A stretch of 64,000 bases of DNA from Pyrinomonadaceae bacterium. Lineage in GTDB: Bacteria > Acidobacteriota > Blastocatellia > Pyrinomonadales > Pyrinomonadaceae. The position numbers were made by a program, and so were the translations under genes. The notes under the pieces were generated by a model. It saw only the letters and a list, made by a program, of their open reading frames with translations, was not told the origin of the DNA and did not search any database. Positions 3,129 through 52,748 of this stretch are shown here, one piece after another. How positions within the stretch are numbered: the first letter of the stretch is position 1; every line of letters starts with the position of its first letter. The stretch covers positions 240,855 to 304,854 of the forward strand of contig JBJXEG010000011.1 of assembly GCA_046155085.1 (NCBI GenBank). The letters run 5' to 3'.

Positions 3129-3160
3129 AATTCGTAATTCGTAATTTGAAATTCGTAATT
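3129..3160. repeat. right arm of perfect 32-bp inverted repeat
   Basis: AATTCGTAATTCGTAATTTGAAATTCGTAATT is the exact reverse complement of 2742-2773. Confidence 0.97.
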
Positions 3161-5899: not shown

Positions 5900-6049
5900 A
5901 TGGCAGAAAATAATATATGCGAACATAAAATGTGCAATTGCACCGTCACTGGCGATGAGCAGTTTTGCAGCGATCACTGCCGCGAAGCGTCCTCCCATGG
6001 CATGGCTGAGATCGCTTGTGACTGCGGATGCCCTGGCTGTAAACTATAG
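5900..6049 (+). CDS. 49-aa Cys/His-rich metallothionein-like (SmtA/BmtA-like) peptide
   Basis: My translation: MAENNICEHKMCNCTVTGDEQFCSDHCREASSHGMAEIACDCGCPGCKL, with 9 Cys and 3 His. An AAGGAG RBS sits 8 nt upstream. The C-x-C...CS..C...C-x-C-x-C..C spacing is reminiscent of bacterial metallothioneins. Confidence 0.55.
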   Translation: MAENNICEHKMCNCTVTGDEQFCSDHCREASSHGMAEIACDCGCPGCKL

Positions 6050-6258
6050 TGTCAAAGGACGTTATAAAAGTTGACGGCGAGGACGTGGTGGTGCGCGAAG
6101 ATACGGCCAAGGCCTATCGCTTTGTTCATTGGGGCGTGATCACGGCGGCGATCGGCCTCATAATAATGATCGCCTTATTTGCAATATTTTTCTGGCGGGC
6201 GGCAAGCGACGGTAAGCTTGTCAGCCCGGCTGATAGCAGCAAGTCGACCAGCCGGTAA
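6049..6258 (+). CDS. 69-aa single-pass membrane protein
   Basis: The GTG start overlaps the preceding TAG by 1 nt. TM segment is WGVITAAIGLIIMIALFAIFFW. Confidence 0.5.
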   Translation: MSKDVIKVDGEDVVVREDTAKAYRFVHWGVITAAIGLIIMIALFAIFFWRAASDGKLVSPADSSKSTSR

Positions 6259-6278
6259 ACGAGGTCTTTCTCTCAGCC

Positions 6279-6818
6279 CTAATGGGTCGCCGCCGTTGCA
6301 ATGATCGTCGGCTGGATGATGCGATGCTTGAGACAGGCCGCCTCGATCAGGGCGTGTATCTCGCTCTCCATCAGGCCGTGATCCTTCTTATCCGCATTCG
6401 AAACCTCAGAGATGATCAAAAATTTTGCTTTCTCAAGCATCGTCTGTTCACGAAACGAGAGTTTCTTTTCGTAACTGATAAACGTCAGTTTTTTTAGTAC
6501 GTCCGCCGCCTCAAATATATCGCCCGAGTGGAGCTTGTCAGTAAATTCGCGCGAGCGGGTCTTCCAGTCGCACGAAACACACTCGAAATCTTCGGACAAG
6601 CTCTCAATCAGCTCGCGGCATTTTGCGGAGCTGATGATCGGCCGTATCCCAACACTCTCCGCGTTGACCGCCGGGACAAATATGGTTGAATTATCATGCA
6701 GGACCCGCAGGGTATAACCATCCATCTTGCAATCGCCGATCGTGCAAGTTGTGGTTCCCTCGACCAGGCAGATGCCCTGATTCGGATACGCTACTTTTTG
6801 ACCTATATTTAGCTGCAT
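6279..6818 (-). CDS. carD: CarD/CdnL family RNA-polymerase-binding regulator
   Basis: MQLNIGQKVAYPNQGICLVEG... is a CarD_TRCF-like N-domain. A GAGGAAG RBS precedes ATG 6818. Confidence 0.75.
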   Translation of the reverse strand: MQLNIGQKVAYPNQGICLVEGTTTCTIGDCKMDGYTLRVLHDNSTIFVPAVNAESVGIRPIISSAKCRELIESLSEDFECVSCDWKTRSREFTDKLHSGDIFEAADVLKKLTFISYEKKLSFREQTMLEKAKFLIISEVSNADKKDHGLMESEIHALIEAACLKHRIIQPTIIATAATH

Positions 6819-33368: not shown

Positions 33369-34130
33369 ATGCGTCTAACGTTTCTCGGAACCGGAACTTC
33401 CACGGGTGTGCCATCGATCGGGTGCGATTGCGAGACATGCCTGTCTGAGGACCCGCGTGACAAACGGCTGCGTGTCTCGATTCTCATAGAGCACCGCGAT
33501 AAGAAAGTACTAGTTGATACGTCGATAGATTTTCGCCAACAGGCCTTGCGGGCAAGGATCAATCACCTTGATGCAGTTCTCATAACGCATTGCCACGTCG
33601 ATCACGTGTTTGGCCTCGATGACATTCGCCCACTCAATTTTCGCCACGGAGCGATGGGCGTCTATGCTAATGAGATCGCCTGGGTCGATCTGCGCCGCAT
33701 TTTTCAATATATATTCAATCCCACCCATTTTGGGGGCGGCCTGCCGCAATTGATACCCCACACCGTCGAGCCAAATGCCCCGTTCTGCGTCGGCGAGGAT
33801 CTTGAGATCACGCCGCTAGAGGTCACACACGGCAAGTTGCCGGTCATCGCATACCGCTTCAATGACTTTGCCTACGCCACCGACCTGAAGGTCATTCCAC
33901 TCGCGTCAATGGAACGCCTTCGCGATCTTGACGTTCTAGTTCTCGATTGTGTCCGTATCAAACCGCACTCGACGCACCTATGCCTCGATGAAGCGCTTAC
34001 CATCATCGAAGATTTAAAGCCGAAACGAGCTTTCCTCACACATCTCAATCACGACATCCTGCACGAACGCGATTCGCGTCTGTTGCCGGATAATGTGCGG
34101 TTTGCATACGACGAACTGGTGGTCGATTAA
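33369..34130 (+). CDS. MBL-fold metallo-hydrolase (PhnP-like)
   Basis: HCHVDH (HxHxDH) motif. N-terminus is FLGTGTSTGVPSIGCDCETC. Confidence 0.78.
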   Translation: MRLTFLGTGTSTGVPSIGCDCETCLSEDPRDKRLRVSILIEHRDKKVLVDTSIDFRQQALRARINHLDAVLITHCHVDHVFGLDDIRPLNFRHGAMGVYANEIAWVDLRRIFQYIFNPTHFGGGLPQLIPHTVEPNAPFCVGEDLEITPLEVTHGKLPVIAYRFNDFAYATDLKVIPLASMERLRDLDVLVLDCVRIKPHSTHLCLDEALTIIEDLKPKRAFLTHLNHDILHERDSRLLPDNVRFAYDELVVD

Positions 34131-34279
34131 GGCGTAAAATAACACTCGATTTAACTTAAATTCAATGTAAGTTATTGTGCCGCAATGCGTTACGAAATTG
34201 TTACGCCCAATTTAACGCTGTACGTTAGACGTGGCGCGCTAAATGCTGCAAAAACTAGACTTAGACGAAAGTTTTAAAA

Positions 34280-34323
34280 CCACTATATTTTGTGTTGACA
34301 ACGGGAATAGACTACCATATAGT
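34280..34323 (+). promoter_or_regulatory. nrdA promoter TTGACA-N17-TATAGT with overlapping NrdR-box-like site
   Basis: CCACTATATTTTGTGT (34280-34295) matches 14 of 16 positions of the NrdR box acaCwAtATaTwGtgt. -35 at 34295-34300 and -10 at 34318-34323. A weaker half-box CTATAT lies at 34325-34330. Confidence 0.55.
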
Positions 34324-34521
34324 CTATATCCACTAAGGGACTCAGCCTTTAATTTAAGTATTTAGAGACCCGTCTGAAACACTTACCAGTCCGGTGTAAA
34401 GCAGCGGCCTTGCTTGCGAAAATGTAATGCGGGGGGAGTGGAACTTTCTCTCTTTTTTTACCGGACAAATCACGTGAGCGTGTCGAAATGCGGCCCGGAC
34501 GTAGGAGGAAAATAGCTAATC

Positions 34522-36936
34522 ATGGACACTTTTTTTGGACAGACCGGCACCGCCGCAACCCGACAAACGGATGACTCGGCCCAAACTTCGATGCAGGTAC
34601 GCAAACGTAACGGCTCGCTCGAGCCGGTCGATATTAATAAGATCGTTCGTGCAATCACGCGTTGCTGCGTCAATCTACCGGGTGTGGACAGCCTACGCAT
34701 AGCGACTAAGACCATTAGCGGTCTTTATGACGGGGCAACGACCCGCGAGCTCGACAAGCTGTCGATCCAGACGGCGGCAAGTCTGATATTTGAGGAGCCG
34801 GAATACTCGCTCCTCGCGGCCCGCCTGCTCAATCAATATGTTGAGAAGGAGGTCCGCAATCAGGAGATACATTCATTTTCACAGTCGATCGCCATTGGCG
34901 TTAAAGAGGGGTTGATCGGGACACGTGTCGCCCAGTTTGTCACGGAGAACAGCCGGAAGCTAAACGACGCGGTTGATAAGACACGAAACGACCTGTTTGA
35001 GTTTTTTGGTCTTCGCACATTGTATGACCGCTATCTCCTGAAAAACCCTGAGACACGGGACGTGATCGAATCGCCGCAGTTTTTCTGGATGCGCGTCGCC
35101 TGCGGCCTCGCCGAAAACCCCTACGAGGCTATAGACCTATATAATCTCTTTTCGTCGCTCGAATACGTGCCCAGTACCCCGACGTTATTCAATTCCGGTA
35201 CACAGCACGAGCAGCTCTCATCGTGTTTCCTGCTCGATTCGCCGCTCGACAGCCTCGACAGCATTTACAAAAAGTATTCCGACGTCGCTATGCTCTCGAA
35301 ATTTTCGGGCGGCATCGGCATAGCATATTCACGCGTCCGATCACGCGGATCACTAATTCGCGGGACCAATGGCCATTCGAACGGTATCGTGCCGTGGCTC
35401 AAGACGCTTGACTCCAGTGTCGCAGCGGTAAATCAAGGCGGCAAACGCAAGGGGGCCTGCTGTGTCTATCTAGAAACGTGGCATGCCGACATCGACGATT
35501 TTCTCGAGCTCCGCGACAACACCGGCGACGACGCGAGCCGCACGCACAACCTCAATCTGGCAAATTGGATACCCGACCTTTTTATGAAGCGGGTCCAGGC
35601 GGACGGCCAATGGTCGCTGTTTGATCCAAAGATCGTGCCGCATTTTCCGGATCTCTATGGTGAGGAATTTGAGGCGGCGTATGTCAAAGCCGAGGAAGAA
35701 GGGCTTTTTATGCGTCAGATAAATGCCCGTGACCTTTACGCCAAGATGATGCGGACGATGGCCCAAACCGGCAATGGATGGATGACATTTAAGGACGCGA
35801 GCAACCGAAAATCGAACCAGACGGGACGCCCGGAAAACGTCGTCCACCTTTCAAACCTCTGCACCGAGATAATCGAGGTCACGTCAGATAGCGAGACGGC
35901 CGTGTGTAATCTCGGTTCGATAAATGCGGCCCGCTACGTTAAGGATGGTCAGTTTGACTACGACAAGCTCCGCCGCAACGTGCATCTCGCCGTCAGACAG
36001 CTGGATAAGGTGATCGACCTCAATTATTACGCGATCCCCAGCACCGCAGGTTCGAACAACCGCTGGCGTAACATTGGCCTGGGTGTGATGGGTTTGCAGG
36101 ACGTTTTTTTTCAGATGCGTCTCCCTTTCGACGGTGATGAAGCACGAAAAATCTCGGCTAAAATACAAGAGGAAATCTACTTTGCCGCACTCGACGCCTC
36201 GTCGGACCTCGCCGTGACACGCGGCATGCATCCGGCATTTTTCGAAACGCGTGCCGCACAGGGTGATCTGCAATTTGACCTTTGGGGTGTAACGCCCGAC
36301 GACATCGGACGCTGGGATGCCTTGCGTGAAAAGATCAAGGCGACGGGACTGAGAAATTCCCTGATGATCGCCATCGCTCCGACCGCCACCATTGCCTCGA
36401 TCGCCGGCTGTTACGAATGCATCGAGCCGCAGGTGTCAAACCTGTTCAAACGCGAAACCTTGTCGGGCGACTTTGTCCAGATCAACAAATACCTGGTCAA
36501 AGAGCTAAAAGCCATCGGTCTCTGGACCGACGAGATTCGCAATAAGATCAAACTGAGCGAAGGCTCGGTGCAGGACATCGATGAGTTTAGCGACGAGCTA
36601 AAAGCGATCTACCGCACCTCATGGGAGATACCGATGCGTTCCCTGATCGACATGCAAGCCGACCGGGGAGCGTTCATCGATCAATCGGCTTCGCTCAACC
36701 TGTTCATGGAGAGCCCAAATATCGGTAAGCTTTCATCAATGTATATGTATGCGTGGCAAAAGGGCTTGAAAACGACGTATTACCTTCGCTCGCGCCCAGC
36801 TACGCGGATTGCACAGGTCGCCGCCGCTGATAATATCGCATCTGTTATCGAAGAGCCTACGAAGAAGGTGTATACAGATGAAGAAGCGTTGGTTTGTTCG
36901 CTGGAGAATCCCGAGGCGTGTGAAGCATGTCAGTGA
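34522..36936 (+). CDS. nrdA: class Ia ribonucleoside-diphosphate reductase alpha subunit
   Basis: ATP-cone (VRKRNGSLEPVDINKIV), NLCTEI active-site loop and a C-terminal redox tail ENPEACEACQ. Confidence 0.93.
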   Translation: MDTFFGQTGTAATRQTDDSAQTSMQVRKRNGSLEPVDINKIVRAITRCCVNLPGVDSLRIATKTISGLYDGATTRELDKLSIQTAASLIFEEPEYSLLAARLLNQYVEKEVRNQEIHSFSQSIAIGVKEGLIGTRVAQFVTENSRKLNDAVDKTRNDLFEFFGLRTLYDRYLLKNPETRDVIESPQFFWMRVACGLAENPYEAIDLYNLFSSLEYVPSTPTLFNSGTQHEQLSSCFLLDSPLDSLDSIYKKYSDVAMLSKFSGGIGIAYSRVRSRGSLIRGTNGHSNGIVPWLKTLDSSVAAVNQGGKRKGACCVYLETWHADIDDFLELRDNTGDDASRTHNLNLANWIPDLFMKRVQADGQWSLFDPKIVPHFPDLYGEEFEAAYVKAEEEGLFMRQINARDLYAKMMRTMAQTGNGWMTFKDASNRKSNQTGRPENVVHLSNLCTEIIEVTSDSETAVCNLGSINAARYVKDGQFDYDKLRRNVHLAVRQLDKVIDLNYYAIPSTAGSNNRWRNIGLGVMGLQDVFFQMRLPFDGDEARKISAKIQEEIYFAALDASSDLAVTRGMHPAFFETRAAQGDLQFDLWGVTPDDIGRWDALREKIKATGLRNSLMIAIAPTATIASIAGCYECIEPQVSNLFKRETLSGDFVQINKYLVKELKAIGLWTDEIRNKIKLSEGSVQDIDEFSDELKAIYRTSWEIPMRSLIDMQADRGAFIDQSASLNLFMESPNIGKLSSMYMYAWQKGLKTTYYLRSRPATRIAQVAAADNIASVIEEPTKKVYTDEEALVCSLENPEACEACQ

Positions 36937-36937
36937 A

Positions 36938-37256
36938 CCAATATGGTGAAGATAACCTCAAACGAAATATACAAATTTGTAAAATCGATCGAGGGTAAAA
37001 CTGTAAGAACCAGAACTGGGCGTGATTTTCTGGTTCGCGTTGAGGGGGAGAAGTTAATTTACACACCTCAATCTTCCGCTAAAGCCCGGAAGCAGTATCG
37101 AAAGGTAGTTGACCGCGTTTGCCAACAAGTATCAGCAACGAACTCGTTTCGCCTCAGTGATTATACGTCTTATACCGTTAACGGATCATACATCCTGGCT
37201 CTGATTCAGGAATATATCTCTCGAGGAGATTCGCAGTAATTAAAAACCCTTTGCTA
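36938..37256. mobile_element. inserted segment between the two copies of the nrdA 3' end
   Basis: Flanked by GCGTGTGAAGCATGTCAGTGAA (36916-36937) and GCGTGTGAAGCTTGTCGGTAAA (37257-37278). It contains only ORF 36943-37239. Confidence 0.4.
36943..37239 (+). CDS. hypothetical 98-aa basic protein, no family recognised
   Basis: ORF in track. It starts 6 nt after the nrdA stop and is AT-richer than its flanks. Confidence 0.5.
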   Translation: MVKITSNEIYKFVKSIEGKTVRTRTGRDFLVRVEGEKLIYTPQSSAKARKQYRKVVDRVCQQVSATNSFRLSDYTSYTVNGSYILALIQEYISRGDSQ

Positions 37257-37278
37257 GCGTGTGAAGCTTGTCGGTAAA
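37257..37278 (+). repeat. relic duplicate of nrdA 3' end (reads LACEACR-stop)
   Basis: 19 of 22 nt are identical to 36916-36937. In frame, CTA GCG TGT GAA GCT TGT CGG TAA. Confidence 0.8.
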
Positions 37279-37284
37279 TAAGCC

Positions 37285-37668
37285 ATGAGAGATTATGTTG
37301 TATATAACAATCCAGATTCAGTAGGCGATCTATACAAAGAAAATCCGTTATGCGTATTCACGGACAAAAAAGTGTCAACTGAGGTAATTGGCTCTCGTGT
37401 TTGGTTAATTGTTGGCGAAGGCCGCCCAAGAAGTTATTTTTTGCGATGCTGGTTCTTTGTCGATGATATCGATCGGGGAAAAGAACGCGGCTTCGCCACA
37501 AAGCTAAGTGGGTCAGAAGGAGTGGTGTTCGAGCCAATGACTTTACTTCCCGGCGATGAGGAGTGGTTTCTCTCGTTCAAAAAGGATCAAGGCAATTTTG
37601 CATTTGGATTTAGTTCCATCAAAAACGGCCAGACCATTGTTCATCTCGAACAAATCGCCCAGGTGTGA
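37285..37668 (+). CDS. hypothetical 127-aa protein, no family recognised
   Basis: ORF in track. It starts 7 nt after the relic stop. I count about 36 G+C in its first 100 nt by hand. Confidence 0.5.
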   Translation: MRDYVVYNNPDSVGDLYKENPLCVFTDKKVSTEVIGSRVWLIVGEGRPRSYFLRCWFFVDDIDRGKERGFATKLSGSEGVVFEPMTLLPGDEEWFLSFKKDQGNFAFGFSSIKNGQTIVHLEQIAQV

Positions 37669-37683
37669 ATCAACAAAATTATT

Positions 37684-38682
37684 ATGCTGTTAGATCAAGG
37701 TTTCAACTTAACGCTTCGTCCGATGAAGTATCCGCAGTTTTATGAGATGTATAAAAATGCGATCAAGAATACGTGGACGGTCGAGGAGGTCGATTTTTCG
37801 ACCGATGTAAACGACCTGCGTAACAAGATGACGCCGTCTGAGCGGCATATGATCAATCGTCTGGTGGCGTTTTTTGCGACCGGCGATTCGATCGTATCGA
37901 ACAATCTAGTTCTAAATCTCTACAAACACATTAATTCGCCCGAGGCTCGGATGTATCTGTCGCGGCAGCTTTATGAGGAAGCTGTCCACGTTCAGTTTTA
38001 TCTGACGCTGCTAGACACCTACATTCCCGACCACCACGAGAGGGAGCAGGCGTTTGCGGCGGTGCAGAATATTCCGTCGATCCATAAAAAGGCCGAGTTT
38101 TGTTTCAAATGGATAGATTCGATCCAGAATCTCCATGCTCTTGAGACCAAGGAAGACCGCAAACAATTTCTGCTCAATCTGATCTGCTTTGCGACCTGTA
38201 TCGAAGGCCTGTTTTTCTTCGCGGCCTTTGCTTATGTATATTTTCTGCGTTCCAAAGGTTTGCTCCATGGCCTCGCGGCGGGGACAAATTGGGTCTTCCG
38301 CGACGAGTCGGCACACATGGCGTTTGCACTCGACGTGATCAAAGAGGTACGCAACGAAGAGCCTGAACTTTTTGACGAACCGCTTCACCGCCAGATCGTC
38401 GAGATGATCGACGAAGCCGTGACGTGCGAAATGCAGTTTGCCGAGGACATCCTATCCGGTGGCATTTCAGGTTTGTCAGTTGCCGATATGCGTCAATACC
38501 TCGAATTCGTTGCCGACCAACGGCTCATCATGCTAGGCATGCAAAAGGTCTACGGCGCAAAAAACCCGTTCTCATTCATGGACCTGCAGGACGTTCAGGA
38601 ACTCGCCAATTTCTTCGAACGCCGCGTCTCGGCCTACCAGGTCGCCGTGGCGGGCGATGTGAGTTTTAACGAATCTTTTTAG
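37684..38682 (+). CDS. nrdB: class Ia ribonucleotide reductase beta subunit
   Basis: Di-iron/radical motifs FATGDSIV, EEAVHVQFY (ExxH plus Tyr) and RDESAHM. Confidence 0.92.
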   Translation: MLLDQGFNLTLRPMKYPQFYEMYKNAIKNTWTVEEVDFSTDVNDLRNKMTPSERHMINRLVAFFATGDSIVSNNLVLNLYKHINSPEARMYLSRQLYEEAVHVQFYLTLLDTYIPDHHEREQAFAAVQNIPSIHKKAEFCFKWIDSIQNLHALETKEDRKQFLLNLICFATCIEGLFFFAAFAYVYFLRSKGLLHGLAAGTNWVFRDESAHMAFALDVIKEVRNEEPELFDEPLHRQIVEMIDEAVTCEMQFAEDILSGGISGLSVADMRQYLEFVADQRLIMLGMQKVYGAKNPFSFMDLQDVQELANFFERRVSAYQVAVAGDVSFNESF

Positions 38683-38839
38683 GTGTCGATCCAGACTTGT
38701 TCTTTCCGAAGAGCCACGTCCAACGACTCAAAAAAATCGCAAAGTGACCCGGTACACGCTCAAATCAGGTCGGACATCGCGGAGTATTACCATCGATCGC
38801 TCCACCAACCCAGCTGGCCGAAGTTTCCCCAACAAAAGA

Positions 38840-39646
38840 TCACGGTTTAGACGGCAGGCGCAGCTCCCCGATCTCTCGGCGAAGGGCGCGGACCTCATCG
38901 AGGATTATCTGGGTGTGAGCCGCTTCGGCGCCCTTGAGATCTTCGGCTACCTGCGACTGCATGGCATTGACGACCACCGCGATAAATAAATTCAACACCA
39001 TGAACGTCGCGATCAGCAGGTAGGTGACAAAGAATATCCAAGCGTAGGGCGACTGCTCCATCAACCCGCGCGCAATATCGGGCCACCCTTCGACCGTCAT
39101 CACCTGGAACAGCGTGAACAGCGAGGCTCCCAGACTGCCGAAGTACTCTGGAGAGATCGCCCCAAACAATTTCGTAGCCATTACCGCCGATACGTATAGC
39201 ACGAGAGCCATCAGGCCGATGATCGAGGCCATGCCCGGCAATGCCGTGAGCAGGGCGTTAACCACCCCGCGCATCGAGGGAACCATCGAGATCAACCGCA
39301 TTGCACGCAGCACACGCAGGGAGCGAAGGACGCTGAACGCACCGCTTGCCGGCATCAAAGCGATACCTACGATCACGAAATCGAACACTCGCCACGGATC
39401 GTGAAAGTAGCGGCTACGATATACAAAAAAGCGCAATGACAACTCGAGCACAAAGACCCCGAGCACCGCCCGGTCGATCGCATACAGCAGGCCGCCAAAG
39501 CTGGCGACAATCGCTGGCGAGGTTTCGATTCCGAGGGTGATCGCGTTCGCGACGATCAGAGCGATGATCGCTCGATCAAAAAATGGATGCTCGATGAAGA
39601 AGCGAACGCGCTCGCGCAAGCTAGGTAAGGTTGTGAAATCGGTCAT
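38840..39646 (-). CDS. bacterial voltage-gated sodium channel homolog (NaChBac/BacNav family)
   Basis: S4 is SVLRSLRVLRAMRLISMVPSMR (Arg every third residue). The pore LFTLFQVMTVEGWPDI compares with NaChBac LFTLFQVVTLESWAS. The likely start is MTDFTTL (ATG 39646). Confidence 0.85.
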   Translation of the reverse strand: MTDFTTLPSLRERVRFFIEHPFFDRAIIALIVANAITLGIETSPAIVASFGGLLYAIDRAVLGVFVLELSLRFFVYRSRYFHDPWRVFDFVIVGIALMPASGAFSVLRSLRVLRAMRLISMVPSMRGVVNALLTALPGMASIIGLMALVLYVSAVMATKLFGAISPEYFGSLGASLFTLFQVMTVEGWPDIARGLMEQSPYAWIFFVTYLLIATFMVLNLFIAVVVNAMQSQVAEDLKGAEAAHTQIILDEVRALRREIGELRLPSKP

Positions 39647-51038: not shown

Positions 51039-52748
51039 ATGAACGATATCGCGGTAAAAGAAAGAATCGATCCGGCCGTTGCAAACGGAGTTTTATTGCC
51101 GACAAATGGGCTTGAGATCGCCAAACGCACTTCGAACGAAGATCTGATCGCCGAAGAGCGTGAGCTTCTGCGAACGGAAGAATCTGTCGAGAGTAGTTAT
51201 CTCGGTATACGCGGTTATCTGCGGTTGTTTCAGATCTCGCGAGTTATAGCCATGCTGTCGCTGTATCTCTATCTTGACCAGTACGATATTCATCGTAAAC
51301 ATAGCCAAAAAAAAGCGGCGGCGCGTATGGACAACGCCCGCAGTCTGACGCGAGCGGCCGTCTATGGTGAAAAATTGTACGGTTTGCGTCTATGGTTCGT
51401 TGATATTTTTTTGTTGAGTGTTCGGCGGTTTTTCGTCGGCAACAGCATAAATAAGGAAGCCAATCAGGAAAGACAGGCCCTGTGGCTTAAAGAAAAACTG
51501 ATAAAGCTGGGGCCGACGTTTATTAAGATAGGTCAGTCCATGGGCACCCGAGCTGACCTTTTGCCGCTGCCGTTTGTGAAAGAATTAGGAACGCTGGTCG
51601 ATCAGGTTCCGCCGTTTCCAAACGACGTTGCTTTTGCGATCATCGAGCATGAGCTTGGCAAGAAGATCAACGAGGTGTATGCCGAGTTTGACCTTGAGCC
51701 GGTCGCGGCCGCCTCTCTCGGTCAGGTATATCGGGCCCGGCTTCACAGCGGCGAAGAGGTTGCCGTCAAGGTGCAGCGGCCAAATCTCGAAGCTACTATA
51801 AAAGGCGATATCGTAATCCTCAAAAAGGTCGCAAAATTTGCCGAGCGGTTTCCGCAGTTAAACGAAAATGCTGATTGGGCCGGGATGCTGCGCGAATTTG
51901 ACGTAACGATTCACGAAGAGATGGATTACGCCGCTGAGGGGCGCAACGCCGAGCGATTTCATGAGAATTTTAAGAATTGGAAAAATATTCATGTGCCTAA
52001 GATCTACTGGCACGCTACGACCGCCAGGATATTGACCATGGAGTTTATCCACGGCACAAAGGTCACGGATCTTGCGGAACAGGCACGGCTCAACATCTCG
52101 CCGGCAAAGGTAAACCGTTTACTCATTAAAACCTATCTGAAACAGCTTTTAGAAGACGGCTTTTTTCACGCTGATCCGCATCCCGGCAATCTGCTTGTAA
52201 TGCCCGACGGGCGGCTAGCATTCTTTGATTTTGGGATGGTCGGGAGGATCTCGCCCAAGCTTCAGGCAAAAATGATCGATGCCTTTTTCCACGTTGTCGA
52301 TAAAGATCCGGGCGGGATTGCCGAAGATCTGATCGAGCTTGATTTCCTAAAACCCGGAACAAACCCGAGCGCGATTAAGCCGGTCGTTGAAAGGATGTTT
52401 GAGTTTCATTTCGACCTTAAACTCAAGGATGTTAATTTTAAGGAGCTGACATACGATCTGGCCGACGTGATGTACGACTATCCGTTTCGTCTGCCGTCAA
52501 ATTTTACATACATAATGCGTGCCCTTATGACGCTCGAGGGCATAGGTATCGTGACCGACCCGGAATTCAATTTCTTTGAAACGGCTAAGCCGTACGCCAA
52601 AGAATTTATGCTTCGGCGTGAGGGCAAGGACTTTCGCAAGCTGTTCGTCGACAAGATCATGGGCCGCGACGAGGGCGGCCACATCGACTGGGACCGTACA
52701 TGGAAGCTCGCAAAGATGGCGTTTCGCACCGTTTTGAATGCAGGTTGA
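51039..52748 (+). CDS. ABC1/UbiB-family atypical kinase
   Basis: LGPTFIKIGQSMGTRADLLPLPFVKEL...AAASLGQVYRA...FHADPHPGNL. Confidence 0.88.
   Translation: MNDIAVKERIDPAVANGVLLPTNGLEIAKRTSNEDLIAEERELLRTEESVESSYLGIRGYLRLFQISRVIAMLSLYLYLDQYDIHRKHSQKKAAARMDNARSLTRAAVYGEKLYGLRLWFVDIFLLSVRRFFVGNSINKEANQERQALWLKEKLIKLGPTFIKIGQSMGTRADLLPLPFVKELGTLVDQVPPFPNDVAFAIIEHELGKKINEVYAEFDLEPVAAASLGQVYRARLHSGEEVAVKVQRPNLEATIKGDIVILKKVAKFAERFPQLNENADWAGMLREFDVTIHEEMDYAAEGRNAERFHENFKNWKNIHVPKIYWHATTARILTMEFIHGTKVTDLAEQARLNISPAKVNRLLIKTYLKQLLEDGFFHADPHPGNLLVMPDGRLAFFDFGMVGRISPKLQAKMIDAFFHVVDKDPGGIAEDLIELDFLKPGTNPSAIKPVVERMFEFHFDLKLKDVNFKELTYDLADVMYDYPFRLPSNFTYIMRALMTLEGIGIVTDPEFNFFETAKPYAKEFMLRREGKDFRKLFVDKIMGRDEGGHIDWDRTWKLAKMAFRTVLNAG

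What the first reader, a model, noticed from the sequence alone, without database searches (positions are those of the whole stretch)
36913..37683. Two unknown ORFs wedged between nrdA and nrdB, bracketed by a duplicated nrdA 3' end
nrdA ends GAG GCG TGT GAA GCA TGT CAG TGA (EACEACQ-stop, stop at 36934-36936). At an offset of 341 nt, the string CTA GCG TGT GAA GCT TGT CGG TAA (37254-37277) again reads LACEACR-stop. The two copies (36916-36937 and 37257-37278) share 19 of 22 nt, and the three differences are one synonymous change, Q/R, and TGA/TAA. Only ORF 36943-37239 (98 aa, basic) lies between the copies. ORF 37285-37668 (127 aa) starts 7 nt after the relic stop, and nrdB follows. Neither ORF resembles the usual RNR-operon accessory proteins: there is no NrdH-like CxxC, no NrdI flavodoxin-like motif, and too few Cys for a YfaE-type ferredoxin. 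I recognise no family for either. Both are visibly AT-richer than the flanks. The pattern looks like a gene cassette inserted into the extreme 3' end of an essential gene, with the essential C-terminal CxxC redox tail regenerated. That is the signature left by free-standing homing or selfish genes, and the nrdA-nrdB spacer is a known landing site for mobE in T-even phages. The pair could be a selfish cassette, a novel toxin-antitoxin or defence pair, or new RNR accessory factors.
Basis: partly seen in the sequence, partly recalled or inferred. Interest (0 to 1): 0.8.

Follow-up and report, generated by a model that had tools for sequence, protein, structure and literature searches.

The report
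Accessory-gene slot between nrdA and nrdB
Two small foreign genes, related to modules found in bacterial anti-phage restriction systems, sit in the gap between the two ribonucleotide-reductase genes of a soil acidobacterium, and that gap holds different small genes in nearly every related genome.

Summary
nrdA (34522-36936), ORF98 (36943-37239), ORF127 (37285-37668) and nrdB (37684-38682) lie head to tail. A 19/22-nt copy of the nrdA 3' end sits at 37257-37278, and both ORFs are AT-rich (GC3 0.43 against 0.63-0.65).

A related contig (L001) shows the predicted ORF98-free allele: nrdA ...EACEACQ-stop, 7 nt, ORF127, nrdB. The relic is therefore a real nrdA/ORF127 junction. It brackets only ORF98, so the two ORFs are separate acquisitions and not one cassette or pair.

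In the 12 closest Acidobacteriota the nrdA-nrdB spacer runs from 5 to 1387 nt and carries unrelated small co-oriented genes. It is a hypervariable cargo slot inside an essential operon.

ORF127 models as a PUA-like (EVE/ASCH/YTH-type) barrel. Its homologs are embedded in Hma defence systems, fused into a DUF6508 protein, or follow a GmrSD-like enzyme. It is under strong purifying selection and is younger than its flanks.

ORF98 belongs to an unnamed ~95-aa domain family. The domain also forms the N-terminus of HNH and NOV_C nucleases and sits beside restriction-modification and base-modification genes.

Neither ORF has a nuclease domain or matches any RNR accessory family. Biochemical function and insertion mechanism are inferred only.

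The parts
34295..34323 (+). Promoter-like site (TTGACA-17-TATAGT, 11 of 12) upstream of nrdA. It is the only candidate start for one nrdA-ORF98-ORF127-nrdB transcript.
   Evidence: Consensus scan only. No + strand promoter-like or terminator-like site lies between 36937 and 37683.
34522..36936 (+). nrdA, the class I ribonucleotide reductase large subunit (ATP-cone, all-alpha and barrel domains). It ends ...LENPEACEACQ-TGA.
   Evidence: Pfam Ribonuc_red_lgC 2.8e-193, Ribonuc_red_lgN and ATP-cone. The ORF is listed.
36916..36937 (+). Copy 1 of the 22-nt direct repeat. This is the functional nrdA tail (ACEACQ-stop).
36943..37239 (+). ORF98, a stand-alone member of an unnamed ~95-aa alpha/beta domain family. 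It is AT-rich and is absent from the allele in L001.
   Evidence: An exhaustive HMMER search found 244 representatives at E<=1e-3. Family alignments are A2 and A3. The AF2 model has pLDDT 88.8. There is no Pfam or PDB match. Fused homologs carry HNH or NOV_C.
37240..37256 (+). A 17-nt stretch between the ORF98 stop and the relic. It is the right-hand end of the segment that L001 lacks.
   Evidence: Comparison of the window with L001.
37257..37278 (+). Copy 2 of the repeat. This is the relic nrdA tail (ACEACR-TAA), which no ORF uses. It is followed by a 7-nt spacer and the ORF127 ATG, as the intact tail is in L001.
37285..37668 (+). ORF127, a small protein with a PUA-like (EVE/ASCH/YTH-type) fold. 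It is AT-rich, and L001 carries it at 94% aa identity in the same position.
   Evidence: 9 + 18 homologs. The AF2 model has pLDDT 89.1. The top Foldseek PDB hits are all PUA-like. dN/dS is 0.07. Homologs are embedded in Hma systems or stand next to a GmrSD-like enzyme, and one is fused into a DUF6508 protein.
37684..38682 (+). nrdB, the class I RNR small subunit. Its first ~170 nt belong to the low-divergence tract shared with L001.
   Evidence: Pfam Ribonuc_red_sm 1.3e-85.

Best explanation
The nrdA-nrdB intercistronic gap of this Pyrinomonadaceae-like acidobacterium is a lineage-wide cargo slot. Small co-oriented accessory genes are gained, lost and exchanged there, most likely by recombination anchored in the highly conserved nrdA and nrdB flanks. 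They are most likely expressed by read-through from the nrdA promoter.

This genome holds two independently acquired cargo genes. ORF127 is a PUA-like beta-barrel protein. Its relatives are accessory or embedded components of Hma (helicase-methylase-ATPase) and GmrSD-like restriction systems, so it is most likely a binder of (modified) nucleic acid or nucleotides. ORF98 is a stand-alone copy of a new ~95-aa domain. The same domain forms the N-terminal, non-catalytic module of HNH and NOV_C nucleases, and it also occurs beside HsdM, RAMA, Nmad2/Nmad3 and McrC-like genes. It is most likely a substrate-recognition or regulatory module.

The nrdA-ORF127 junction is the older arrangement, shared with L001. 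The ORF98 segment lies between the live nrdA tail and a dead copy of it. This duplication is the footprint of an illegitimate, microhomology- or one-sided-homology-type join. It was tolerated because it left the essential NrdA C-terminal CxxC intact.

Shown: the anatomy, the ORF98-free allele, the hypervariable slot, the folds, the family contexts, and purifying selection on ORF127. Inferred: co-transcription, the binding functions, and the recombination mechanism and its polarity.
For: The ORF98-free allele is in L001: nrdA ...ENPEACEACQ-TGA, 7 nt, ORF127, 15 nt, nrdB.

The slot: spacers in the 12 closest Acidobacteriota are 5, 9, 81, 88, 137, 305, 306, 525, 699, 788, 873 and 1387 nt. Their + strand cargo is unrelated: Bro-N proteins, DUF5076, DUF4160, two unknown ORFs and a decayed fragment. 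None of them has a tail repeat.

Foreign composition of both ORFs.

ORF127: the model has pLDDT 89.1. Ranks 1-29 of the Foldseek PDB search are EVE, ASCH, YTH or the VcaM4I reader domain, with a best E of 6.8e-4 and TM 0.62. Homologs lie between HmaA plus a DUF6508 protein and HmaB. Others follow a HEC-06/GmrSD-like enzyme, lie next to an HNH-effector-like gene, or sit on a plasmid beside DUF4145, RES and HsdR genes. One copy is fused inside an 856-aa DUF6508 protein. Against L001, dN/dS is 0.074 and dS is 0.32, compared with dS 1.21 for nrdB (Fisher p 3e-5). The lowest divergence runs from ORF127 codon 32 to nrdB codon 57.

ORF98: 244 family representatives. C-terminal HNH in five fused homologs and NOV_C in one. 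Neighbours are HsdM, a RAMA protein, Nmad2/Nmad3 with a McrC-like gene, and TA- or DarT-rich islands.

No promoter-like or terminator-like site and no Rfam match lie inside the gap.

Literature: 62.7% of Hma systems carry embedded genes, many of which are defence systems (10.1101/2024.01.29.577857). PUA/EVE domains act as modification sensors of restriction enzymes (PMC7897488, PMC6765204, PMC7641849).
Against: No binding or defence activity was tested for either protein. ORF127 matches no Pfam EVE, ASCH or YTH model by sequence, and the structural match is moderate (TM 0.62). The ORF98 model has no significant structural neighbour, so its role as a recognition module rests only on domain architecture and neighbourhood. 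No Hma system, nuclease or other defence gene was found among the ten large proteins scanned elsewhere in the 64-kb window, so any partner for these lone modules is unknown. The polarity of events is not settled. Deletion between the two 22-nt repeats would also produce the L001 state. The relic could also be a donor tail that arrived with ORF127. No donor allele carrying ORF98 next to nrdA was found. Only one relative (L001) shares ORF127 at this site.
Confidence: 0.6

Rival explanations
1. Alternative history: ORF98 was there first, directly after nrdA. The ORF127 block was imported later by one-sided homologous recombination anchored in nrdB. Its ragged left end carried the last 22 nt of the donor's nrdA, so the relic was never part of this genome's own nrdA.
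For: The least diverged tract against L001 runs from the 3' two-thirds of ORF127 into the first ~170 nt of nrdB (pS 0.21-0.43, against 0.63 for the rest of nrdB). This fits a recent recombination event with its right end in nrdB. The relic is contiguous with ORF127 at the same 7-nt spacing as in L001. A 19/22 identity is no higher than between orthologous tails of different genomes.
Against: At the four synonymous sites of the tail, the relic agrees with this genome's live tail at three and with L001's tail at none. Divergence rises again in ORF127 codons 1-31 (pS 0.43), so the recent tract may not reach the relic. No allele with nrdA followed by ORF98 alone has been found.
Confidence: 0.25
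2. ORF98 is the remnant, or a non-autonomous satellite, of a site-specific integrative element. That element would use the nrdA 3' end as its attachment site and carry a replacement copy of it. The known precedents are prophages that integrate into the 3' end of icd or of tRNA genes (own knowledge). The two 22-nt copies would then be attL and attR cores.
For: Direct repeats of about 22 nt flank the insert, and the target gene's 3' end is preserved. L001 looks like a precise empty site.
Against: The insert is only 319 nt plus one repeat and encodes no recombinase. No integrase was seen among the neighbouring genes examined. None of 12 relatives with other cargo at this site has a tail duplication. 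No terminal inverted repeats were found.
Confidence: 0.1
3. It is a selfish homing cassette of the T4 mobE type. One of the ORFs is, or was, a site-specific nuclease that cuts cargo-free nrdA-nrdB junctions and spreads by gene conversion.
For: There is presence/absence polymorphism at one site. ORF127 is younger than its flanks, and the tract extends into nrdB, which resembles co-conversion. Relatives of ORF98 are fused to HNH nucleases. GIY-YIG genes occupy the same spacer in Dyella. mobE lies between nrdA and nrdB in T4 (PMC2790892).
Against: Neither ORF has any nuclease domain by sequence or by structure. In the HNH fusions the ORF98-like domain is the N-terminal, non-catalytic part. No HNH remnant can lie downstream, because only 17 nt separate ORF98 from the relic. 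Recombination through the conserved flanks explains the exchange without a nuclease.
Confidence: 0.05
4. ORF98 and ORF127 act together as a two-gene toxin-antitoxin or defence module.
For: They are adjacent, co-oriented and small, and both come from families found in defence or TA-rich islands.
Against: L001 keeps ORF127 under strong purifying selection without ORF98. Profile searches over all 125 other fetched loci find no locus with both families. Neither matches any PADLOC model. Neither has a recognisable toxin or effector domain.
Confidence: 0.08
5. They are new ribonucleotide-reductase accessory factors, for example redox partners, assembly factors or regulators.
For: Their position inside the nrdAB operon implies co-expression. 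A PUA-like protein could in principle bind nucleotides.
Against: They are absent from the 12 closest genomes, which carry nothing or unrelated genes there. They match no NrdH, NrdI, YfaE or other family. Homologs of both occur far from RNR genes, in restriction or defence loci. Their base composition is foreign.
Confidence: 0.05

Closest known systems
Integration hotspots flanked by conserved core genes in bacterial chromosomes (general concept; own knowledge) and genes 'embedded' within operons of Hma defence systems (Payne et al., bioRxiv 10.1101/2024.01.29.577857)
   Same: One fixed gap between two conserved genes holds different small accessory genes in different genomes. The cargo is co-oriented and tightly packed. 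Cargo is exchanged faster than the flanks diverge.
   Different: The slot lies inside an essential two-gene housekeeping operon, not between operons or inside a defence system. The cargo is only one or two genes of 96-277 aa. No integrase or transposase is involved.
PUA-like superfamily modification readers: EVE (MJECL36 2p5d, PH1033), ASCH, YTH, and the EVE domain of the restriction enzyme VcaM4I (PMC7897488, PMC6765204, PMC7641849)
   Same: The ORF127 model has the same barrel fold. Its homologs sit next to or inside restriction-type systems, as EVE domains do.
   Different: There is no sequence-profile match to EVE, ASCH or YTH. ORF127 is stand-alone with no nuclease in the window. The ligand is unknown. 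This family associates with Hma and DUF6508, which was not described in the papers read.
Phage T4 mobE, a free-standing HNH homing endonuclease between nrdA and nrdB (PMC2790892)
   Same: A foreign gene lodges in the nrdA-nrdB gap, with presence/absence polymorphism between relatives.
   Different: The setting is a bacterial chromosome, and neither ORF has a nuclease domain. Here the gap holds many unrelated genes across relatives, not one homing gene.
Sensor-plus-nuclease architecture of modification-dependent (type IV) restriction enzymes, where an N-terminal reader is joined to a C-terminal HNH or PD-(D/E)xK domain (PMC6765204)
   Same: Homologs of ORF98 occupy the N-terminal position in front of HNH or NOV_C domains.
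   Different: The ORF98 domain is not one of the known readers (PUA, SRA, DUF3427, RAMA). It has no Pfam match and no structural match. ORF98 itself has no nuclease.
Prophages and integrative elements that insert into the 3' end of a gene and carry a replacement 3' end (for example e14 and phage 21 in icd; own knowledge)
   Same: The gene's 3' end is duplicated: one live copy and one dead copy flank the insert.
   Different: The insert has no integrase. The repeat is only 22 nt. The other cargo genes at this site have no repeat.

Membership tests
PUA-like superfamily (EVE/ASCH/YTH) - ORF127 | A small pseudo-barrel beta fold with flanking helices that superposes on solved EVE, ASCH or YTH domains | tested here: met
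   The AF2 model has pLDDT 89.1 and pTM 0.85. Foldseek PDB ranks 1-29 are EVE (2p5d E 6.8e-4, TM 0.62; PH1033), ASCH, YTH, VcaM4I and the thymocyte protein DUF55.
PUA-like superfamily (EVE/ASCH/YTH) - ORF127 | A sequence-profile match to a curated family (Pfam EVE, ASCH or YTH) | tested here: not met
   No Pfam hit at E<=1. No PDB sequence hit with the protein or with the family profile.
PUA-like superfamily (EVE/ASCH/YTH) - ORF127 | A ligand pocket that binds a modified base or nucleotide | not testable with these tools
   This needs binding assays or a co-structure. The conserved residues are listed.
Hma-embedded gene (sensu Payne et al. 2024) - ORF127 family | The gene lies between hma genes of a PADLOC-recognised Hma system | tested here: met
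   This holds for the homologs. In L002/L003 the flanking genes score HmaA 3.9e-187, HmaB 6.9e-124 and HmaC 3.8e-119. Loci L008-L014 and L107 keep the same gene order as far as each contig reaches. It does not hold for the window copy, which lies between nrdA and nrdB.
Free-standing homing endonuclease (mobE-like) | Encodes a nuclease domain (HNH, GIY-YIG, LAGLIDADG, PD-(D/E)xK or similar) | tested here: not met
   No nuclease family in Pfam, NCBIfam, PADLOC or PHROGs. The folds are a PUA-like barrel and an unclassified alpha/beta domain.
Free-standing homing endonuclease (mobE-like) | Presence/absence polymorphism at one site, with co-conversion of the flanks | tested here: inconclusive
   An ORF98-free allele exists. 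A low-divergence tract runs from ORF127 into nrdB. Ordinary recombination through the conserved flanks explains both.
Toxin-antitoxin or two-gene defence pair | The two genes co-occur as a conserved pair | tested here: not met
   L001 has ORF127 alone. No locus among the 125 other fetched loci contains both families.
RNR operon accessory proteins (NrdH, NrdI, YfaE) | A match to the family, and conservation at the position in related genomes | tested here: not met
   No Pfam or NCBIfam hit. Both ORFs are absent from the 12 closest genomes.
Site-specific integrative element | Flanking direct repeats (att cores) | tested here: met
   A 22-nt repeat at 19/22 flanks ORF98.
Site-specific integrative element | Encodes, or is associated with, a tyrosine or serine recombinase, and the site is used repeatedly | tested here: not met
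   There is no recombinase in the insert or among the neighbouring genes examined. No repeat occurs in the 12 relatives with other cargo.
Transposable element or MITE | Terminal inverted repeats and a short target-site duplication | tested here: not met
   No terminal inverted repeats bound either ORF. A 22-nt duplication is longer than those known for transposases (own knowledge).

The most novel reading that the evidence does not exclude
The nrdAB intercistronic slot may not be a passive landing pad. It may be a selected expression site where orphan 'reader' modules of restriction systems (the PUA-like ORF127 and the ORF98 domain) are produced in step with ribonucleotide reductase. There they could sense modified or phage-derived nucleotides or DNA. 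Alternatively, they could guard RNR, a frequent phage target, and work in trans with nucleases encoded elsewhere. That would be a new, minimal kind of defence or guard module built into an essential operon.
Probability: 0.1. Interest if true: 0.75.

Novelty: new variant of a known kind. Interest (0 to 1): 0.5.

Why it matters
The finding documents an intercistronic gap inside an essential housekeeping operon that behaves as a fast-turnover slot for small accessory genes. There are at least ten different states among 14 related acidobacterial genomes.

It also gives first characterisations of two unannotated protein families that are tied to restriction and defence systems. One is a PUA-like family embedded in Hma systems and fused to DUF6508. 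The other is a new ~95-aa domain that precedes HNH and NOV_C nucleases. Both are concrete candidates for new modification-sensing or regulatory modules of anti-phage systems.

The live and dead nrdA tails form a clean natural example of how insertions at the end of an essential gene are tolerated. If the cargo has no link to RNR, the finding is a tidy but unsurprising case of hotspot biology.

Tried and rejected
Searches that found nothing for either ORF:
- Sequence searches against Pfam, NCBIfam, PADLOC, PHROGs and PDB.
- A word-indexed protein search with ORF98. Only the exhaustive HMMER search found the family.
- Foldseek with the ORF98 model against PDB and BFVD gave no significant match, only partial SH3/KOW/Tudor-like overlaps at E>=0.04.
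- Viral contigs for ORF127 gave no relatives. The ORF98 alignment was too variable to run that scan.
- tblastn against phage genomes gave no hits. Plasmids gave one ORF127 homolog and none for ORF98.
- The metagenome scan for close ORF98 relatives, meant to find a donor allele, found none.
- Rfam found nothing in 34000-39000.

Ideas tested and dropped:
- Looking for a mosaic break at the 3' end of nrdA against nine relatives showed no clear signal.
- Looking for tail duplications in the 12 relatives found none.
- A third partial repeat (GTGTGAATCA at 37663-37672) was judged a chance match, because it is in a different register relative to the stop codon.
- A 17/22 match at 6524 was also judged chance.
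- ORF98 is not a part of the DUF6508 proteins, and the two ORF families are unrelated.
- My guess that the 73-75-aa ORFs in L034 and L076 were KTSC-domain proteins was not confirmed.

Full report
**1. Observation**

- nrdA is 34522-36936 (804 aa, with ATP-cone, all-alpha and barrel domains) and ends ...LENPEACEACQ-TGA.
- ORF98 (36943-37239) starts 6 nt later.
- Seventeen nt after its stop comes GCGTGTGAAGCTTGTCGGTAAA (37257-37278). This matches the last 22 nt of nrdA plus one base (36916-36937) at 19 of 22 positions.
- Seven nt further on, ORF127 (37285-37668) starts.
- nrdB (37684-38682; Ribonuc_red_sm) follows after 15 nt.

With up to three mismatches the 22-mer occurs only at these two places in the window on either strand. 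The expected count from shuffles is 0.01.

Both ORFs have GC3 of 0.43, against 0.645 for nrdA and 0.628 for nrdB. Windowed GC drops to 0.41-0.45 over 36850-37750.

Neither ORF matches Pfam, NCBIfam, PADLOC, PHROGs or any PDB sequence.

**2. The relic is real, and the predicted empty site exists**

The closest ORF127 homolog (P0001, 94% aa) lies on ENA contig k141_451784 (L001). Its first 140 nt read ...YTDEEALVCSLENPEACEACQ-TGA, then ATATGCT, then the ORF127 ATG. After ORF127 come a 15-nt spacer and nrdB. L001 is therefore an allele with ORF127 but without ORF98.

The live nrdA stop in L001 sits at the same 7-nt distance from ORF127 as the relic does in the window. This shows that 37257-37278 is a former or imported nrdA end and not a chance string.

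It also shows that the repeat brackets ORF98 only. The two ORFs are separate acquisitions.

**3. The gap is a cargo slot in the whole lineage**

A scan of one genome per species with NrdB returned 80 loci. The 12 closest are all Acidobacteriota (Pyrinomonadaceae or Blastocatellia MAGs) with 84-94% NrdB identity.

In these 12, nrdA always ends ENP(E/D)xCExCQ. The distance to nrdB is 5, 9, 81, 88, 137, 305, 306, 525, 699, 788, 873 or 1387 nt.

The longer gaps hold unrelated + strand genes that start a few nt after the nrdA stop:
- L021: a 98-aa ORF with no family.
- L027: a DUF5076 protein.
- L024: a 150-aa ORF with no family.
- L025 and L029: 277-aa Bro-N proteins, with a decayed copy in L019.
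- L029: a DUF4160 protein as well.
- L018: a chimeric DUF5076 fragment followed by palindromic repeats.

None of these loci contains ORF98 or ORF127, and none has a duplicated nrdA tail.

The window, L001 and L018 are about equally distant from each other (82-85% nrdB nt identity), yet they carry three different gap contents.

No + strand promoter-like or terminator-like site and no Rfam family lie inside the window's gap. A near-consensus promoter-like site lies upstream of nrdA at 34295-34323. Co-transcription with nrdAB is the simplest reading, but it is inferred.

The rest of the window is ordinary chromosome. It encodes BamA, TamB, RibBA, a TonB-dependent receptor, a GGDEF protein, AsnB and UbiB, and no defence system was found among the large genes scanned.

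**4. ORF127**

Nine homologs came from the protein database and 18 more from metagenome contigs. They form a well-conserved family with 30 invariant columns.

The AlphaFold model built on this alignment is confident, with pLDDT 89.1 and pTM 0.85. Its best PDB matches are uniformly members of the PUA-like superfamily:
- the EVE proteins MJECL36 (2p5d; E 6.8e-4, TM 0.62) and PH1033;
- ASCH from Zymomonas;
- the Mmi1 YTH domain;
- the reader domain of the modification-dependent restriction enzyme VcaM4I;
- the human EVE/DUF55 protein.

Fold-level membership is therefore met, while sequence-profile membership in EVE, ASCH or YTH is not.

The genomic contexts of homologs are consistent with this assignment.
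- In a Pyrinomonadaceae MAG and several metagenome contigs, the gene lies directly after a 1523-aa SNF2/NOV_C helicase and a DUF6508 protein. Where the contig extends far enough, it lies directly before a DUF1156 methylase, a 155-aa gene and a DUF499 ATPase. PADLOC names these HmaA (3.9e-187), HmaB (6.9e-124) and HmaC (3.8e-119). The ORF127 family is therefore an Hma-embedded gene in the sense of Payne et al. They report that 62.7% of Hma systems carry embedded genes, many of which are defence systems themselves (10.1101/2024.01.29.577857).
- In L107 the 856-aa DUF6508 protein contains an internal ORF127-like domain (residues 449-571 of the translated frame; domain E 3e-45), in addition to the stand-alone copy downstream. 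This fusion links the two families functionally.
- Other homologs directly follow a GmrSD-like enzyme that matches HEC-06 (7.5e-63).
- Others lie next to an HNH-effector-like gene.
- One lies on a Polaromonas plasmid beside DUF4145, RES-domain and type I HsdR genes.
- No phage or viral contig carries the family.

**5. ORF127 is functional here and younger than its flanks**

Between the window and L001, ORF127 has 20 synonymous and 7 non-synonymous codon differences. By Nei-Gojobori, dN/dS is 0.074. The gene is therefore maintained by selection even though no Hma system or nuclease is nearby.

Its dS is 0.32, against 1.21 for nrdB in the same pair. Nucleotide identity is 92.7% against 84.4% (Fisher p 3e-5).

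By block, the proportion of synonymous differences (pS) is:
- 0.43 for ORF127 codons 1-31;
- 0.21 for ORF127 codons 32-127;
- 0.43 for nrdB codons 1-57;
- 0.63 for the rest of nrdB.

The last 21 codons of nrdA are identical in protein but differ at 16 synonymous positions.

The first 111 nt of nrdB are 92% identical in this pair, against 79-82% in the two other pairs of comparable overall distance.

The ORF127 block has thus been exchanged between these lineages, or received from a common donor, after the lineages separated. One recombination end lies in nrdB. Recombination through the conserved flanks suffices to explain this, and no nuclease needs to be invoked.

**6. ORF98**

The word-indexed search found nothing. 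The exhaustive HMMER search of 1.84 billion representatives found 244 proteins at E<=1e-3, 17 of them at E<=1e-10.

Most are stand-alone proteins of 93-105 aa. Their shared signature is L..FA..L.G..L.T...F.V.V...L.YTP.STGK.R...RV...F..T.S..P.DY...T.NASY.LALI, and ORF98 keeps it.

No member hits a Pfam family convincingly. The family profile hits no PDB sequence.

Longer members carry the domain at the N-terminus, followed by an HNH nuclease (P0015, P0030, P0075, P0116, P0128) or a NOV_C domain (P0051). One 1545-aa protein matches it in nine stretches.

The AlphaFold model (pLDDT 88.8) is helix, four strands, helix, helix. It has no significant neighbour in PDB or BFVD, only partial overlaps of the strand part with SH3, KOW or Tudor-like barrels at E>=0.04.

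Stand-alone homologs sit in these contexts:
- directly after a type I HsdM methylase (L105, the closest homolog at 48%);
- after a RAMA-domain protein (L098);
- overlapping the start of an Nmad2-Nmad3 operon beside a DUF2357/PDDEXK_7 (McrC-like) gene (L099);
- in islands rich in Fic, AAA_13, HigB-like, BrnT, HicA, PIN, DarT/Macro and HNH-helicase genes.

The most economical reading is a substrate-recognition or regulatory module of DNA restriction and modification systems, here in orphan form. This rests on architecture and neighbourhood only.

ORF98 and ORF127 are unrelated by profile comparison. They never share a locus elsewhere.

**7. How the duplicated tail arose**

The data fix the structure but not the path.

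History A holds that nrdA-7 nt-ORF127 is ancestral, as in L001. The ORF98 segment joined inside the last 22 nt of nrdA, and the tail was duplicated so that NrdA kept its C-terminal CxxC. That motif is needed to shuttle reducing equivalents in class I RNR (established knowledge). The downstream copy then decayed (Q to R; TGA/TAA).

History B holds that ORF98 already followed nrdA. The ORF127 block then entered by recombination anchored in nrdB, and its ragged left end carried the donor's last 22 nt of nrdA.

Evidence for A: at the four synonymous sites of the tail, the relic agrees with the window's live tail at three and with L001's at none. The recent tract also seems to stop inside ORF127.

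Evidence for B: the recent tract ends in nrdB. In addition, 19/22 identity is no more than orthologous tails of different genomes show, since 11 of 78 pairs reach 19 or more.

A third formal possibility is that L001 derives from the window-like state by deletion between the repeats.

A site-specific integrative element is unlikely. There is no recombinase, no reuse of the site with repeats in 12 relatives, and no inverted repeats. A 22-nt duplication is too long for known transposases (own knowledge).

I favour an illegitimate join helped by one-sided homology. Confidence in this mechanistic step is low.

**8. Comparison with known systems**

It fails its defining test, because neither ORF has a nuclease.

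The RNR-accessory idea fails on distribution and on family membership.

The pair (TA or defence module) idea fails because the genes are acquired and retained independently.

The best fit is a core-gene-flanked hotspot, or 'embedded gene' slot, whose current cargo is two orphan modules from restriction and defence systems.

ORF127 is a new sequence family within the PUA-like fold. ORF98 is an unclassified domain.

**9. Verdict**

Novelty: a new variant of known kinds.

Interest is moderate (0.5). The operon-internal hypervariable slot and the two uncharacterised defence-linked families are worth follow-up. Nothing here contradicts current understanding.

Noticed in passing
L037 3486-3779 (-), L041 3468-3761 (-); similar ORFs in L051 3486-3809 (-) and L058 3443-3775 (-): In Dyella and related Xanthomonadales, the 480-770-nt nrdA-nrdB spacer holds a ~98-110-aa GIY-YIG catalytic-domain gene on the opposite strand (Pfam GIY-YIG 1e-14 and 7e-15 for L037 and L041). 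So the nrdA-nrdB gap attracts nuclease-type selfish genes in another phylum as well.
   Followed up: partly
L107 3399-5966 (+): An 856-aa Hma-embedded DUF6508 protein carries an internal ORF127-like domain (residues ~449-571 of the translated frame; domain E 3e-45). A stand-alone ORF127 homolog lies directly downstream at 6004-6384. The result is a fusion plus a tandem paralog.
   Followed up: partly
L018 3386-3990: The nrdA-nrdB gap of the closest complete genome (MFD04651.bin.2.34) holds a 96-aa chimera. Its N-terminus matches DUF5076. By eye, its C-terminus resembles the end of an IS200-like (Y1) transposase. It is followed by inverted copies of a ~35-nt GC-rich palindromic unit that looks REP-like. 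The nrdA reading frame in this long-read assembly is also broken near 3142, either by assembly error or because it is a pseudogene.
   Followed up: no
window 36874-36933 compared with L001 67-129: The last 21 codons of nrdA encode identical peptides in the window and L001 but differ at 16 synonymous positions. This is far more than nrdB (pS 0.63) or ORF127 (pS 0.21-0.43). The 3' end of nrdA seems to have a different history from the rest of the locus.
   Followed up: partly
window 38683 onward compared with L001 1538 onward: Synteny with L001 ends right after nrdB. L001 continues with deoxyhypusine synthase, two small TA-like pairs (Unstab_antitox; PIN), FAD synthetase and UbiB. The window continues with an ion-transport channel and a TerC-like gene on the opposite strand, and its UbiB homolog lies 12 kb further on (51039-52748).
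   Followed up: no
protein P0018 (1545 aa) and P0029 (736 aa): Large proteins match the ORF98-type domain in nine and seven separate stretches. This is an unusual tandem-array architecture for a domain that is otherwise stand-alone or fused to a nuclease.
   Followed up: no
L034 3735-3959 (+), L076 3641-3859 (+): A conserved 73-75-aa ORF (M[KQ]RY.N.SG.SGV..Y...) occupies the nrdA-nrdB gap in a Dyella genome (L034) and a Pseudoxanthomonas genome (L076). It has no Pfam match.
   Followed up: partly
L099 6001-7747: An ORF98 homolog overlaps by 4 nt the start of an Nmad2-Nmad3 (nucleotide-modification-associated) gene pair, next to a divergent DUF2357/PDDEXK_7 gene. This may be a DNA-modification operon in which the ORF98 domain is a regular component.
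   Followed up: no
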